Shown piece by piece: positions 1 through 51,000 of a stretch of DNA of 64,000 bases. Position numbers: made by a program. This DNA comes from Mizuhopecten yessoensis (Eukaryota). Where the stretch lies: assembly GCF_002113885.1 (NCBI RefSeq), contig NW_018405598.1, forward strand, positions 125,913 to 189,912. The letters run 5' to 3'. Position 1 is the first letter of the stretch, and every line of letters begins with the position of its first letter.

Positions 1-3000
1 CAGAGGTACTACAGTGATTTTCTTTACGTGGAAAGAAAGATCATCAGGGGCTTTATTTAAATTGAAAATATCAGGACCCCGAGCTATCCGTTCTCCCTTG
101 GGGAGGGGTTAACGTTTAATATAGTTTATATAGGGAAAGTATATATTTTATCCATTTTCAGCAGAAAATTGCTCAAACTTAGTCAGAATCATCTTGGGTA
201 AATGAGAGTTTTACTTTGTAAAATTAGGATTCCTGTCCCATCCCCAGGGGCTAGGGCGGGGCCCCAAAGGGAACATTTACCAATATTTTCAAATTCTTAT
301 CCATTGATGACATGACAAGTATTGTATTTCACTTATTTTACATGCTGATTTCCACATCACATCTAAACAATAAAATAAAGCTACCAGTACCTATGATATA
401 ACTCAGGTGACCGCTAAGGCCCTTGGGCCTCTTGTTTAGTTTAAGCCCAAAAATTAGTTGGATCTGGTTTTCTCACTCTTCTAAATGGATCTGGTTATTC
501 ATCAAAATCAGTGGACTCTGGTTATAAGCCTACAGCTTTCGAATAATGTTTGGGGTTTTTTTCCACAGAGGATAAAGTGCTGATATTTGGGAATGACAGG
601 ACATTTGAAAAGAAAATGAAAAAACTCCACCTTAATGACCAAGTGACTTTGATGCCCTGGACCAGAGAGGTGGAGAAATCGCTACGACGACTAGTGACCA
701 GACCACGAGGGGCTGTAATTAAATAACGAACCATGTGTTATTTACGACTTTGATGCCCTGGACCAGCGAGGTGGAGAAATCGCTAGGACGACTAGTGACC
801 CGACCACGGAGGGGCTGTAATTAAATCACGAACCATGTGTTATTGACATTTTTATCCTGGAAGTCAAAATAAACGTTGTACAAATTGTGTTTAAGATAAT
901 TTCATTCCAGCTGCCAAACAAATGTCGACTGTATTATGTTAGAGGTATTCCTACATTGTAACTTTGTAGCTAATTGAAGTGTCCTGAACACCCCTTAAGC
1001 TTACCACTTAGATTTGAAGTGTTACAAGGTAATCCTTCAGCCACACTGGATTAATCCAGATGTAAGAGTGACCTTTAGGATCCTTTTAACTAGCTGAATA
1101 ACTTTTATCTGACAACTCAAATTTCAATAATCTGGAAAAGGTGGTAATTTGTGAACCAGATTGTGGAGACATAACTGTGTCTGTAGGTGAACCAGATTGC
1201 GGAGATATCACTGCTTCTGTTGGGGCCCAGCAGTTTTTGTCCTCGGCTGGCTTGGAGGGACGGAAACTGTTCACTTGGCCATTCTAGTAGATCATTGTGC
1301 ACATTATTTAAATTATATTTTCAATATGTGAAATAATTTCATTTAAATAGTTAATATATGTTATTCATAGTTTTGATTTGACCATCTTGCTTTTTATGCA
1401 CACTGAAAAGTTGTTTTCATGATAATATTCGTCATTTTTGATGAAATTTAAATGGCATACTCTGGTGGTCTGTAGAAATTATTATTTCATTTTGTCATTT
1501 CTAGATTTGGATTGAGAGACAGTGTTTTATTGAATTATTGGTTCCTTGCTTTTTGATACAAATGTACATAAAGTTGTAGTTTTTTGATGAAATAGTATCC
1601 TCTTTGTCATCGTTTCTAGAATAGAATCTATAACTCTACTTTTTATATACCTTATACATTTTATACTGATATTTACATTTCTATTTACTTTCTGTATTTA
1701 ACTGTTTTATAAAATTTTAATAATTTGAACGCTTTTAACCGACTTCCTGATCATTTTTAGCTCTGAAGTCTGAGAGTTCAAGCTTTAATTCTTATATTTG
1801 TGAAATCCTGTTTTATTTTCTTGTTTTAGAAATCCTATTTTATATCTGCTATTTAAATATGTCTCAGTATTTAGTCTCATATTTTCAGTATAAAAACACA
1901 CTAATTGTCATTTTGATATTTTTCTACCTCACATCATAAATTCATCATTAGTTTGGCTGCATAATCATGTCTTCACCAGCTATTGGATATGTTTATGTGT
2001 GTTGGAAGTCAATGTAAAAAGTTTAAAAAATCAGTTTTATACTCTGTGCCTTTTATATACCAGTACATGTACCCGCACACAGACTTTTTGACTCTTCAGA
2101 ATTCTTTGTGCGTCTTGCATAATTACATATATGTATCTTTTCAATGCGTTAATAAAAAAGTTATTCAATTAAATTATTTTCTTTTGTTATTCAGTGCTTT
2201 CACTAGAAGCCCACTTTTTCCTGTGTTTGATAATGATGAATTTGGAATAAGCTACTGGATACTGGGAAACTTTCACCTAGTTAAATATTTGCCCCTCTCT
2301 GTGAAAATCTGTTTTCGTCCAGTATGAATTTTGCCCTGCACTTATACGTACTATATACTGTTTATTGTGCTCTACTATTCGCTGTCATGTAAGTTCACCC
2401 TTATTGAGGAGGATGAAAACAGCGAAAGTTAAACTGTGGCGAATATTTCCAAGTATACAGTACTATCCATGTATCTGCTTTAGCTCACCTGACACATAGC
2501 TCACCTCACACATAGCTCACCTCACACATAGCCTACCTGACCCATAGCTCACCTCACACATAGTTCACCTCACACATAGCTCACCTCACATATAGCCTAC
2601 CTGACCCATAGCTCACCTCACACATAGCTCACCTGATGCATACCTCACCTAACACATAGCTCACCTTACACATAGCTCACCTCACACATAGCTCACTGAC
2701 ACATAATTCACCTAACACATAGCTCATCTCACTCATACCTCACTGACACATAGCTAACCTAACACATAGCTCACCAGACACATAGCTCACCTGACACATA
2801 GCTCACCAGACACATAGCTCACCTAACACATAGCTCACCTGACACATACAATTTGTAGCTCACCAGACACGGCTCACCTGACACATATATGATATTTGGA
2901 CTGTGGCTAGGGTGAAGTGCAACTTTATACAAACAAATTACCTTGACCCTCTTGAAATCTCAATGGACAAATACGTTGAAATCGTAAAGTATTGAAGATT

Positions 3001-48000: not shown

Positions 48001-51000
48001 CTACCCCGTCTGTTTCGTTATAGGTGAGTACACAACCCTGTCTGTTTCGTTATAGGTGAGTACACAACCCTGTCTGTTACGTTATAGGTGAGTACACTAC
48101 CCCGTCTGTTACGTTATAGGTGAGTACACAACCCTGTCTGTTACGTTATAGGCGAGTACACTACCCCGTCTGTTTCGTTATAGGGGAGTACACAACCCCG
48201 TCTGTTTCGTTATAGGTGGGTACACTACCCCGTCTGTTTCGTTATAGGTGAGCAAACTACCCCGTCTGTTTCGTTATAGGTGAGCAAACTACCCCGTCTG
48301 TTTCGTTATAGGTGAGTACGCTACCCCGTCTGTTTCGTTATAGGTGAGTACACTTCCCCGTCTGTTTCGTTATAGGTGAGTACACACCCCCGTCTGTTTC
48401 GTTATAAGTGAGTACACTGCCCCGTCGGTTTCGTTATTGGTGAGTACACAACCCTGTCTGTTTCGTTATAGGCGAGTACACAACCCTGTCTGTTTCGTTA
48501 TAGGCGAGTACACAACCCCGTCTGTTTGTTATAGGTGAGTAATCTACCCCGTCTGTTTGGTTATAGGTGAGTACACAACCCCGTCTGTTTCGTTATAAGT
48601 GAGTACACTGCCCCGTCGGTTTCGTTATTGGTGAGTACACAACCCTGTCTGTTTCGTTATAGGTGAGCACACAACCCTGTCTGTTACGTTATAGGTGAGT
48701 ACCCTACCCCGTCTGTTTCGTTATAGGTGAGTACACACCCCCGTCTGTTTCGTTATAAGTGAGTACACTGCCCCGTCTGTTTCGTTATTGGTGAGTACAC
48801 TACCCCGTCTGTTTCGTTATAGGAGAGTACAATACACAGTCTGTTTCGTTATAGGTGAGTACACTACCCAGTCTGTTTCGTTATAGGTGAGTACACAACC
48901 CCGTCTGTTTCGTTATAAGTGAGTACACTGCCCCGTCGGTTTCGTTATTGGTGAGTACACAACCCTGTCTGTTTCGTTATAGGTGAGTGCATTGCCCCGT
49001 CTGTTACGTTATAGGTGAGTACACTACCCTGTCTGTTTCGTTATAGGTGAGTACACTGCCCCGGCTGTTACGTTATAGGTGAGTACACTACCCCGCCTGT
49101 TTCGTTATAGGTGAGTACACAACCCCGTCTGTTTCGTTATAGGGGAGTACACTACCCCGTCTGTTTCGTTATAGGAGAGTACAATACACAGTCTGTTTCG
49201 TTATAGGTGAGTACACTACCCTGTCTGTTTCGTTATAGGTGAGTACACTGCCCCGTCTGTTTCGTTATAGGTGAGTACACTTCCCCGTCTGTTACGTTAT
49301 AGGTGAGTACACAACCCTGTCTGTTACGTTATAGGCGAGTACACTACCCCGTCTGTTTCGTTATAGGAGAGTACACAACCCTGTCTGTTACGTTATAGGT
49401 TAGTACACTACCCCGTCTGTTACGTTATAGGTTATAGGTGAGTACACAACCCCGTCTGTTTCGTTATAGGGGAGTACACAACCCCGTCTGTTTCGTTATA
49501 GGGGAGTACACAACCCCGTCTGTTTCGTTATAGGGGAGTACACTACCCCGTCTGTTTTGTTATAGGTGAGTACACTCCCCCGTCTGTTTCGTTATAGGTG
49601 ATTAAACTCCCCCGTCTGTTTCGTTATAGGTGAGTACACTTCCCCGTCTGTTTCGTTATAGGTGAGTACACTCCCCCGTCTGTTACGTTATAGGTGAGTA
49701 CACTGCCCCGTCTGTTTCGTTATAGGTGAGTACACTTCCCCGTCTGTTACGTTATAGGTGAGTACACAACCCTGTCTGTTACGTTATAGGCGAGTACACT
49801 ACCCCGTCTGTTTCGTTATAGGAGAGTACACAACCCTGTCTGTTACGTTATAGGCGAGTACACTACCCCGTCTGTTTCGTTATAGGAGAGTACAATACAC
49901 AGTCTGTTTCGTTATAGGTGAGTACACTACCCAGTCTGTTTCGTTATAGGTGAGTACCCAACCCCGTCTGTTTCGTTATAGGTGAGTACCCTGCCCCGTC
50001 TGTATCGTTATAGGTGAGTACACTACTCCGTCTGTTTCGTTATAAGTGAGTACACTACCCCGTCTGTTTCGTTATAAGTGAGTACACTGCCCCGTCTGTT
50101 TCGTTATTGGTGGGTACACAACCCTGTCTGTTTCGTTATAGGTGAGTGCATTGCCCCGTCTGTTACGTTATAGGTGAGTACACTGCCCCGTCTGTTACGT
50201 TATAGGTGAGTACACAACCCTGTCTGTTACGTTATAGGCGAGTACACTACCCCGTCTGTTTCGTTATAGGTAAGTACACTACCCCGTCTGTTTCGTTATA
50301 GGTGAGCAAACTACCCCGTCTGTTTCGTTATAGGTGAGTACACAACCCTATACATTTCGTTATCGGTGAGTACACTATCTTTTCAGTTAGGATAACTTAC
50401 TGTTTTGATTCCACCGAGACGATAAAAGATTGTGAGAACTGGCCAATATTGTTTTAGCTTTGTGATTGAAATACTATTCCTTTATTTGAGTCAAGTCTGG
50501 CATTATAATCTAAATCCGTCAATACCGAGTCGTTAGCAGTCAGGCTAGGAATACTACACGATCACCACAAAATGAGGAGTTTGTCTGTTTAATACTGTAC
50601 ACGTGGACAATCAAATGAAAAGCTTTGAAAGAAACGTTACTCACACTTGCGGACGAGCTGTATGCCGTCTAAAACCAAATTATGATGGTTGTCATTTTCA
50701 ATAAATCTGAATATCTATATTGGAATTTCAATAAATGAAATTACATATTTATTACACTTTAACATTAACAGCGTGTTCAATATGTGTTCAATAGCCTAAC
50801 TAACATGTTTTACTACTCTACCCGTTGTAAGGTTGTATAATATACTTTAGGGTGGGTAATAAATCTACACCTTATACCATCTAATGGAGCTCTTTGATGT
50901 TCATTATGTATGTAATTCTCAATGTATGGTGAAACAGCTGTTAAACTCGTGAATGCATTCAATTTCAATTACAGACACGTCGATAACAATTTATATGTAT

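What the first reader, a model, noticed from the sequence alone, without database searches (positions are those of the whole stretch)
1151..50377. Window-wide pattern: tandem repeats repeatedly nucleate on exon boundaries
Seen: up to seven repeats overlap, abut or copy an exon edge in four genes. Donor side: 26386-26490, 42670-43035, 46050-50377. Acceptor side: 1151-1222, 15025-15297, 38775-39215, 44850-45919. They cover all ages, from one decayed copy to ~135 homogeneous copies. Inference: either a mutational process targeted at splice junctions (e.g. transcription/R-loop-linked slippage or repair) or preferential survival of junction duplications that leave the mRNA unchanged. It would be a route to intron growth, splice-site sliding and intron gain. 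I know of no named system for this but cannot exclude prior description.
Basis: partly seen in the sequence, partly recalled or inferred. Interest (0 to 1): 0.65.

Follow-up and report, generated by a model that had tools for sequence, protein, structure and literature searches.

The report
Splice-donor minisatellites in scallop introns
In this scallop DNA, three introns begin with tandem copies of their own exon-intron junction, one of them 135 copies long; single human genes are known to do this, and one window cannot show a genome-wide rule.

Summary
The window is Yesso scallop (Mizuhopecten yessoensis) nuclear DNA, not human. It carries six recognisable genes.

All seven listed repeats exist, but only three copy an exon edge, and all three sit on the donor side:
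- A 32-bp unit (last 17 nt of exon 2 plus first 15 nt of intron 2 of a claudin-like gene), 135 units at 46050-50380.
- A ~51-bp unit spanning exon 1/intron 1 of the same gene, 7 units at 42671-43035.
- One decayed copy of the exon 9/intron 9 junction of a sorting-nexin gene (26372-26422 copied at 26441-26493).

The other four do not qualify. Three "acceptor-side" arrays are intronic minisatellites ending 17, 30 and 186 nt before the acceptor, with no exon sequence in them. At 1151-1222 no exon could be verified.

Of 38 mapped junctions, 3 (3 of 19 donors, 0 of 19 acceptors) have a local copy, against 2.7% of neutral positions. That gives p=0.085 overall and p=0.014 for donors alone, a post hoc split. 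This is suggestive, not proof.

Boundary-spanning minisatellites are already described in human F7, IFI6, CBS, LMNB2 and PDGF. The most likely reading is ordinary tandem duplication, tolerated on the donor side because the first donor stays in use. Intron growth is shown directly; intron gain and splice-site sliding are not.

The parts
42500..42704 (+). Exon 1 of a claudin-like four-pass membrane protein gene (NCBI name of the 99% identical protein: uncharacterized LOC110449280, Mizuhopecten yessoensis). Donor GT at 42705-42706.
   Evidence: tblastn of P0001; splice dinucleotides and phases; weak Pfam Claudin_3 match, below cut-off.
42671..43035 (+). Donor-junction minisatellite 1: about 51-bp units. 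The first is the authentic exon 1 end (about 34 nt) plus intron start (about 17 nt). Six decayed copies follow head to tail, and all six keep a GT at the pseudo-donor.
   Evidence: Sequence; TRF 42670-42769, period 51; iterative alignment scores 62, 27, 39, 71.5, 61, 54 against a null maximum of 37.5 in 489 windows; junction probe score 29.
44982..45733 (+). Ordinary intronic minisatellite (34-bp unit with higher-order periods) in intron 1. It lies 186 nt upstream of the exon 2 acceptor and is not a copy of the acceptor junction.
   Evidence: TRF; position in intron; similarity to the junction not significant.
45920..46066 (+). Exon 2 of the claudin-like gene (147 nt). Acceptor AG at 45918-45919, donor GT at 46067-46068.
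   Evidence: tblastn of P0001. The protein junction ...CFVIG|A/G/V-LLG... is shared by the proteins of four scallop genera.
46050..50380 (+). Donor-junction minisatellite 2: 135 units of 32 bp (125 of 135 exactly 32 nt). Each unit is the last 17 nt of exon 2 plus the first 15 nt of intron 2. Unit 1 is the authentic junction and equals the array consensus. The array makes up 74% of intron 2.
   Evidence: TRF 134.9 copies, 88% matches; unit parsing; 104 of 133 copies keep GT and 70 of 133 keep the authentic 9-mer.
51859..52343 (+). Exon 3 (last coding exon) of the claudin-like gene. Acceptor AG at 51857-51858.
26276..26419 (+). Exon 9 of a sorting nexin 1/2-like gene (PX plus Vps5/BAR domains). 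Donor GT at 26420-26421.
   Evidence: Pfam on single exons; tblastn of P0028.
26372..26493 (+). One-step tandem duplication across the exon 9 donor. 26372-26422 (48 nt of exon plus GTA) is repeated at 26441-26493 inside the intron, 42 of 51 identical with one 2-nt gap. TRF does not detect it.
   Evidence: junction probe score 18; absent from TRF at score 30.
15026..15279 (+). Intronic minisatellite (24/46/98-bp periods) filling 254 of the 440 nt of SNX intron 2. It ends 17 nt before the acceptor AG (15296-15297) and contains no exon sequence.
   Evidence: (score 10).
38794..39185 (+). Intronic minisatellite (19/38-bp unit) in intron 3 of a lipocalin/apolipoprotein-D-like gene. It ends 30 nt before the acceptor AG (39214-39215) and contains no exon sequence.
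   Evidence: (score 10).
1151..1222 (+). 36-bp tandem duplication, 30 of 36 identical. Both copies are in frame within ORF 1102-1287. No evidence that an exon starts at 1187.

Best explanation
The window holds three independent tandem duplications that straddle a 5' splice junction. Two are in one claudin-like gene and one is in a sorting-nexin gene. They lie among many ordinary intronic minisatellites in a repeat-rich scallop genome.

The proposed sequence of events:
1. Each began as a slippage or unequal-exchange duplication of a segment holding the last exon bases and the donor. This step is inferred.
2. The upstream-most copy remains joined to the exon, so it keeps being chosen as donor. 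The mRNA is unchanged and the extra copies become intron. This is supported by the annotated and orthologous proteins, not by RNA data.
3. The copies were therefore tolerated and could drift in number, up to 135 units in one case, enlarging the intron. The enlargement is shown.
4. A mirror-image duplication across an acceptor would place an extra acceptor and an exon fragment upstream of the true one and would more often damage the mRNA. This would explain why no acceptor copy is found. This step is inferred.

The three arrays near acceptors are plain intronic minisatellites. Their nearness to the junction is partly geometric, because they fill much of short introns. The apparent window-wide rule is mostly two striking arrays in one gene plus coincidence.
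For: - Unit composition: units are exon end plus intron start, and unit 1 is the authentic junction.
- Direction of copying: the exon ends are ancestral, so the arrays derive from the junction and not the reverse. The residues they encode (...SSYKD...CFVIG or CFTIG) are present in the proteins of four scallop genera.
- First donor in use: the annotated protein joins exon 2 to exon 3 at the first donor.
- Cost of using a later copy: read-through of the array meets stop codons, and each unit adds 32 nt, which shifts the frame.
- Asymmetry: 3 of 19 donors and 0 of 19 acceptors have a local copy.
- Repeat-rich background: TRF at score 30 finds 61 loci covering 10,611 of 64,000 nt.
- Weak excess over chance: p=0.085 over 38 junctions. 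The seed model expects 0.42-0.58 and observes 2, p=0.06-0.10. Position within introns is not different from uniform, KS p=0.81, with 5 of 12 arrays in the outer 20% of free space, p=0.07.
- Paralogue: its two donors have no copies, scores 8 and 11, so the arrays arose after the gene duplication.
- Precedent: human F7, IFI6, CBS, LMNB2 and PDGF carry such minisatellites, and in F7 only the most upstream donor is used (PMC1557585).
Against: - Donors taken alone exceed the neutral background: 3 of 19 against 2.7%, p=0.014; at the stricter score of 29, 2 of 19 against 0.6%, p=0.006.
- Adding the SNX copy to the seed model gives p=0.009-0.018.
- Two of the three lie in one 9.8-kb gene, which a uniform process does not predict.
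- A survival filter can at most make donors equal to neutral DNA. It cannot enrich them.
- Use of the first donor rests on a predicted protein model. No transcript data were available.
- 70 of 133 copies keep a perfect donor 9-mer, so some mis-splicing or a regulatory effect cannot be ruled out.
Confidence: 0.65

Rival explanations
1. A mutational process aimed at 5' splice junctions (for example transcription- or R-loop-linked slippage or repair near the donor) seeds tandem repeats there more often than elsewhere.
For: Donor-only excess: 3 of 19 against 2.7% of 19,276 neutral probes, p=0.014, and p=0.006 at score 29. Seed model with the SNX copy included: p=0.009-0.018. Two arrays lie at consecutive donors of one gene.
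Against: The window was flagged because of the pattern, and the donor/acceptor split is post hoc. Over all junctions p=0.085. TRF-detected arrays alone give p=0.06-0.10. The exonic half of the authentic unit is held by selection, so old junction copies stay recognisable longer than neutral copy pairs, which inflates the count (inference). Nothing in the unit sequences points to a specific mechanism.
Confidence: 0.15
2. The reiterated donors are kept by selection because they do something, for example as U1 snRNP binding sites or decoys that tune splicing or expression of the claudin-like gene, or as recursive-splice-like AG|GT sites.
For: 70 of 133 copies keep the exact 9-mer, 104 of 133 keep GT, and 82 of 133 keep AGGT preceded by a pyrimidine-rich stretch. 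The array is large, with 135 units.
Against: The donor core varies somewhat more, not less, than other unit positions (Mann-Whitney p=0.04), and the +2 T is replaced in 24 of 133 copies. Block-wise variant patterns fit neutral unequal exchange. The older 51-bp array and the SNX copy are decaying. There are no RNA data.
Confidence: 0.07
3. The arrays, above all the acceptor-side ones, are cores of dispersed transposon-borne tandem repeats. These are known in bivalves as tandem-repeat-containing MITEs. On this view they landed in introns and are unrelated to the junctions.
For: Such elements exist in bivalves (PMC3879986 and PMC5139131; search listing and start of abstract only). The three acceptor-side arrays contain no exon sequence.
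Against: No unit consensus of 11 arrays tested has a second locus in the window. No convincing terminal inverted repeats flank the three acceptor-side arrays. The three donor arrays are made of the gene's own conserved exon end, which excludes a transposon origin for them.
Confidence: 0.1
4. The 135-unit array is an assembly artefact, a mis-expanded or collapsed repeat.
For: Long homogeneous arrays are hard to assemble, so the copy number may be inexact (general knowledge).
Against: There are 84 distinct unit haplotypes among 133 copies, with recurring multi-unit blocks. The flanks are clean and match the annotated exons.
Confidence: 0.03

Closest known systems
Human minisatellites whose first monomer spans an exon-intron boundary: F7 intron 7 (37 bp, 5-9 repeats), IFI6/6-16 intron 2 (authentic donor followed by 25 pseudo-sites), CBS intron 13, LMNB2, PDGF intron 4. 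Source: PMC1557585, abstract and introduction passages; the primary papers were seen only as citations there.
   Same: The first unit holds the last exon bases plus the donor, and the donor is reiterated along the intron. The annotated product here uses the first donor, as in F7, LMNB2 and PDGF. Later copies used as donors would be out of frame or meet stops.
   Different: The host is a mollusc. One array has 135 units and makes up 74% of its intron, far more copies than the human cases quoted. Two consecutive donors of one gene each carry such an array. Use of pseudo-donors and length polymorphism are untested here.
Internal tandem repeats at exon-intron boundaries that remodel introns in human segmental duplications (PMC2812944, passages), and introns arising from tandem arrays (Zhuo et al. 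2007, recalled; its title phrase matched in the listing).
   Same: Tandem repeats overlap exon-intron boundaries and change intron structure.
   Different: Those cases create new introns or alternative splicing. Here the introns are ancestral, with the same positions and phases as the paralogue, and only grow. The supplementary tables of PMC2812944 that list the cases could not be seen.
Intron gain by tandem genomic duplication of an AGGT-containing exon segment (Rogers model, recalled; a potato example is PMC4974935, listing and start of abstract only).
   Same: A tandem duplication supplies extra splice signals.
   Different: No new intron is formed here. The duplicated segment spans an existing junction rather than lying inside an exon.
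Recursive (ratchet-point) splice sites, a juxtaposed 3' and 5' splice site (recalled).
   Same: Each 32-bp unit reads pyrimidine-rich stretch, AG|GTGAGT; 82 of 133 copies keep AGGT.
   Different: The motif here is simply the copied exon end plus donor. There is no evidence of recursive use, and the 32-nt spacing is shorter than known introns (inference).

Membership tests
Exon-intron boundary-spanning (donor) minisatellite, F7/IFI6 type | Head-to-tail tandem array inside an intron | tested here: met
   TRF 134.9 copies of 32 bp and 1.9 copies of 51 bp; parsed as 135 units and as 1 plus 6 units.
Exon-intron boundary-spanning (donor) minisatellite, F7/IFI6 type | The first monomer contains the last exon bases and the authentic donor | tested here: met
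   Exon ends were mapped with P0001 and P0028. Unit 1 holds 17 nt of exon plus 15 nt of intron. The 51-bp unit holds about 34 plus 17 nt. The SNX copy holds 48 nt of exon plus GTA.
Exon-intron boundary-spanning (donor) minisatellite, F7/IFI6 type | The donor sequence is reiterated in the following units (pseudo-sites) | tested here: met
   104 of 133 copies keep GT and 70 of 133 keep the 9-mer. All 6 copies of the 51-bp unit keep GT.
Exon-intron boundary-spanning (donor) minisatellite, F7/IFI6 type | Only the most upstream donor (or the first few) is used in mRNA | tested here: inconclusive
   The predicted NCBI protein P0001 and three orthologues fit the first donor. No transcript data were available.
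Exon-intron boundary-spanning (donor) minisatellite, F7/IFI6 type | Copy number varies among alleles (VNTR) | not testable with these tools
   Only one haplotype is in hand.
   3 of 38 junctions against 2.7% background, p=0.085; donors 3 of 19, p=0.014. Seed model p=0.06-0.10, or 0.009-0.018 with the SNX copy. One post hoc window.
   0 of 19 acceptors have a local copy. The arrays end 17, 30 and 186 nt upstream. Similarity of the 34-bp unit to the acceptor is not significant.
Intron gain by tandem duplication | The intron is absent from relatives or paralogues at that position | tested here: not met
   The paralogue in the window has introns at the same positions and phases, and exon 2 is 147 nt in both.
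Transposon-borne tandem repeats (bivalve MITE type) | Dispersed copies and terminal inverted repeats | tested here: inconclusive
   No second locus within the 64 kb for 11 unit consensuses. No clear flanking inverted repeats.

The most novel reading that the evidence does not exclude
In the scallop genome, 5' splice junctions are preferred seeds of minisatellites, beyond what neutral tolerance explains. On this reading, donor-junction arrays are a regular, donor-specific route by which introns grow by kilobases and carry dozens of silent, intact donor sites.
Probability: 0.15. Interest if true: 0.6.

Novelty: new member of a known kind. Interest (0 to 1): 0.33.

Why it matters
- The claudin-like gene is a natural experiment in 5' splice-site choice. 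One authentic donor is followed by 104 copies that keep GT, 70 of them identical in the 9-mer. A second, older junction array sits at the preceding donor of the same gene.
- It shows directly that a copied exon-intron junction can build three quarters of a 5.8-kb intron.
- If a genome-wide count confirmed a donor-specific excess, it would bear on how introns grow and on whether splice junctions are mutational hot spots. From this window alone that remains open.

Tried and rejected
- Acceptor-junction copying: 50-nt junction probes against their own introns gave only background scores at all acceptors. The 34-bp unit against the exon 2 acceptor region was not significant. A score-17 match for SNX acceptor 7 lies 545 nt upstream at 24625-24656, within the range that 5.7% of neutral probes reach; I dropped it.
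- Exon at 1187: no homologue among longer proteins, no Pfam match, and the Atlas was not available.
- Transposon origin: no dispersed copies in the window and no terminal inverted repeats.
- Selection against pseudo-donors: only a weak signal (p=0.04, 4 against 28 positions, units not independent).
- First null model discarded: I first took a coverage-based null, the share of present-day positions inside repeats. I replaced it with a collapsed-array null, because array expansion inflates coverage without adding seeding events.
- Literature: I found no genome-wide test of junction-spanning arrays and no bivalve report. These cover only the held open-access library and no supplements.
- One search failed on a term with an apostrophe; I rephrased it.
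Full report
**Source of the window.** The window has no N. It is nuclear DNA of the Yesso scallop, Mizuhopecten yessoensis. Single-exon ORFs are 99% and 96% identical to the NCBI proteins LOC110449280 and LOC110449266 of that species. It is not human. G+C is 28-47% per 2 kb.

**Gene models.** I mapped genes exon by exon and did not build or search any joined (spliced) sequence. The genes are:
- A TPMT-like single ORF at 7100-7846.
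- A sorting nexin 1/2-like gene with 11 coding exons between 11212 and 27705.
- Two paralogous claudin-like four-pass membrane protein genes. One is on the minus strand (34027-30443). The other, called CLF here, is on the plus strand (42500-42704, 45920-46066, 51859-52343).
- A lipocalin/apolipoprotein-D-like gene (36003-39431 plus a short exon 5 at 41254).
- PEX11 (exon ending at 59974, last exon from 60591).

This gives 38 mapped junctions: 19 donors and 19 acceptors. Junctions in untranslated regions and in any gene in 1-6 kb and 52.5-57 kb are unmapped.

**The seven listed repeats.** All exist.

Three are true copies of an exon-intron junction, all on the donor side:
1. 46050-50380 holds 135 units of 32 bp, of which 125 are exactly 32 nt. 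Unit 1 is the last 17 nt of CLF exon 2 followed by the first 15 nt of intron 2, and it equals the array consensus.
2. 42671-43035 holds the authentic end of CLF exon 1 plus the intron start (about 51 nt), followed by six decayed copies in register. Five of the six score above the best of 489 random windows.
3. 26372-26422 (48 nt of SNX exon 9 plus GTA) recurs at 26441-26493, with 42 of 51 positions identical. TRF does not report this one even at score 30.

Three are ordinary intronic arrays near acceptors:
- 15026-15279 ends 17 nt before the AG.
- 38794-39185 ends 30 nt before the AG.
- 44982-45733 ends 186 nt before the AG.

None of these three contains exon sequence. Their junction probes score 10, 10 and 13, and the background range is 8-13. 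The likeness of the 34-bp unit to the acceptor is matched by 25% of 1963 random windows.

The seventh, 1151-1222, is a 36-bp duplication with 30 of 36 positions identical. Its two copies lie in frame in one ORF that has no homologue and no Pfam match. No exon edge can be asserted there.

**Direction of copying.** The exon ends are older than the arrays. The residues they encode (SSYKD; CFVIG, or CFTIG in one genus) are present in the orthologous proteins of four scallop genera. The paralogue in the window has introns at the same positions and phases, with exon 2 of 147 nt in both genes, and has no copies at its donors (scores 8 and 11). So the arrays were seeded from pre-existing junctions after the paralogues split. 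Nothing here is intron gain or splice-site sliding. Intron growth is direct: 4314 of the 5792 nt of CLF intron 2 are array.

**State of the copied donors.**
- Among the 133 copies (leaving out the authentic unit and the decayed last unit), 104 keep GT, 70 keep the authentic 9-mer and 82 keep AGGT.
- There are 84 distinct unit haplotypes, and multi-unit blocks recur, as expected from unequal exchange.
- The donor core (-2 to +2) varies slightly more than the other positions (Mann-Whitney p=0.04). This test is weak because the units are not independent.
- Reading through from exon 2 meets a stop in the third unit, and each unit adds 32 nt. Use of a later donor would therefore give a defective message.
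- The annotated protein corresponds to the first donor. I had no transcript data.

**Is it more than chance?** I ran three tests, all confined to this window.
- *Seed model.* There are 20 TRF arrays with score at least 50 and period at least 15. With 34-44 junctions and array-collapsed neutral space, the model expects 0.42-0.58 junction-spanning arrays. Two are observed, p=0.06-0.10. With the SNX copy added, three are observed, p=0.009-0.018. That copy was found by looking at junctions, so this version favours the hypothesis.
- *Probe test.* I aligned 50-nt probes centred on each junction against the next 300 nt of intron. I compared them with 19,276 probes at neutral, array-collapsed positions. 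At score 18 or more, 3 of 38 junctions pass against 2.7% of neutral probes (expected 1.04, p=0.085). By type this is donors 3 of 19 (p=0.014) and acceptors 0 of 19. At score 29 or more, 2 of 38 pass (p=0.022), or 2 of 19 donors (p=0.006) (earlier versions).
- *Position within introns.* For the 12 intronic arrays, position in the free space of the intron does not differ from uniform (KS p=0.81). Five of the 12 lie in the outer 20% (p=0.07). Two of the acceptor-side arrays fill 58% and 41% of short introns, so they must lie near an edge.

The window was selected because of the pattern, the donor/acceptor split is post hoc, and two of the three cases lie in one gene. One further bias is inferred: selection holds the exonic half of the authentic unit, so old junction copies stay recognisable longer than neutral copy pairs.

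**Explanation.** The best reading is ordinary tandem duplication in a repeat-rich genome; TRF loci cover 10,611 of 64,000 nt. Duplications that straddle a donor are tolerated because the most upstream donor, still attached to the exon, keeps being used. The extra units become intron and can change in number. Duplications across an acceptor would put an extra acceptor and an exon fragment upstream of the true one and would be removed more often. This accounts for the 3:0 asymmetry. A junction-directed mutational process is not excluded (about 15%). Selection for the reiterated donors is less likely (about 7%).

**Comparison with what is known.**
- PMC1557585 (abstract and passages read) states that several human genes hold minisatellites whose first monomer spans an exon-intron boundary. 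It lists F7 intron 7, IFI6, CBS, LMNB2 and PDGF. It shows for F7 that the pseudo-sites are functional but that only the most upstream donor is used.
- PMC2812944 (passages) reports tandem repeats at exon-intron boundaries that remodel introns.
- PMC10078293 (passages) catalogues splicing-associated repeats. In what I read it does not address junction-spanning arrays.

The scallop arrays are new members of this known kind. They stand out for copy number (135) and for occupying two consecutive donors of one gene. Those searches cover an open-access library only.

**What stayed unchecked.**
The rest of this genome, the orthologous introns in other scallops and the dispersal of the array units could not be examined.
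- There were no RNA data.
- Supplementary files of papers were closed. The tables of PMC2812944 that list boundary repeats may hold closer precedents.
- The Atlas could not read the ORF at 1102-1287.

Noticed in passing
window 34003-34036 (minus-strand gene): A 17-bp tandem duplication (2.1 copies, 88% matches) overlaps the start codon (34027-34025) and first codons of the minus-strand claudin-like paralogue. This is a repeat at a CDS edge that is not a splice junction.
   Followed up: partly
window 46050-50380: Within the 32-bp units the +2 T of the copied donor is replaced in 24 of 133 copies by all three other bases. The donor core (-2 to +2) varies slightly more than other positions (p=0.04). 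This may be mild selection against pseudo-donors, or chance.
   Followed up: partly
window 46050-50380: Each unit reads pyrimidine-rich stretch, AG|GTGAGT, the form of a recursive splice site. 82 of 133 copies keep AGGT. No evidence of use.
   Followed up: no
window 20084-21646: A 78-bp, 18.9-copy array (94% matches) in the 7.7-kb SNX intron 6 gives a 520-codon open frame on the minus strand. This is most simply a by-product of the period being a multiple of 3.
   Followed up: no
window 30443-52343: The two claudin-like paralogues lie on opposite strands, with their 5' ends facing each other. They flank the lipocalin-like gene and share intron positions (exon 2 is 147 nt in both). Only the plus-strand copy carries junction arrays.
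   Followed up: partly
window 639-830: ORF translations in different frames repeat a motif (FDALDQRGGEIA.TTSD...), suggesting a direct repeat of about 100 bp that TRF did not report.
   Followed up: no
window 14609-14631, 33146-33164, 41211-41239: Three small TRF loci (scores 31-37) sit right at junctions. One is an acidic coding run at the first bases of SNX exon 2. One is an 8-bp repeat 8 nt inside the intron after donor 2 of the minus-strand paralogue. One is a 10-bp repeat 14 nt before the lipocalin exon 5 acceptor. They are too short to count as junction copies.
   Followed up: no
window 42705-42722 and 46067-46081: The two CLF donors share GT(A/G)AGTACAC followed by a (C)TGTCT-like stretch. 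This goes beyond the usual donor consensus by only a few bases and is probably coincidence.
   Followed up: no
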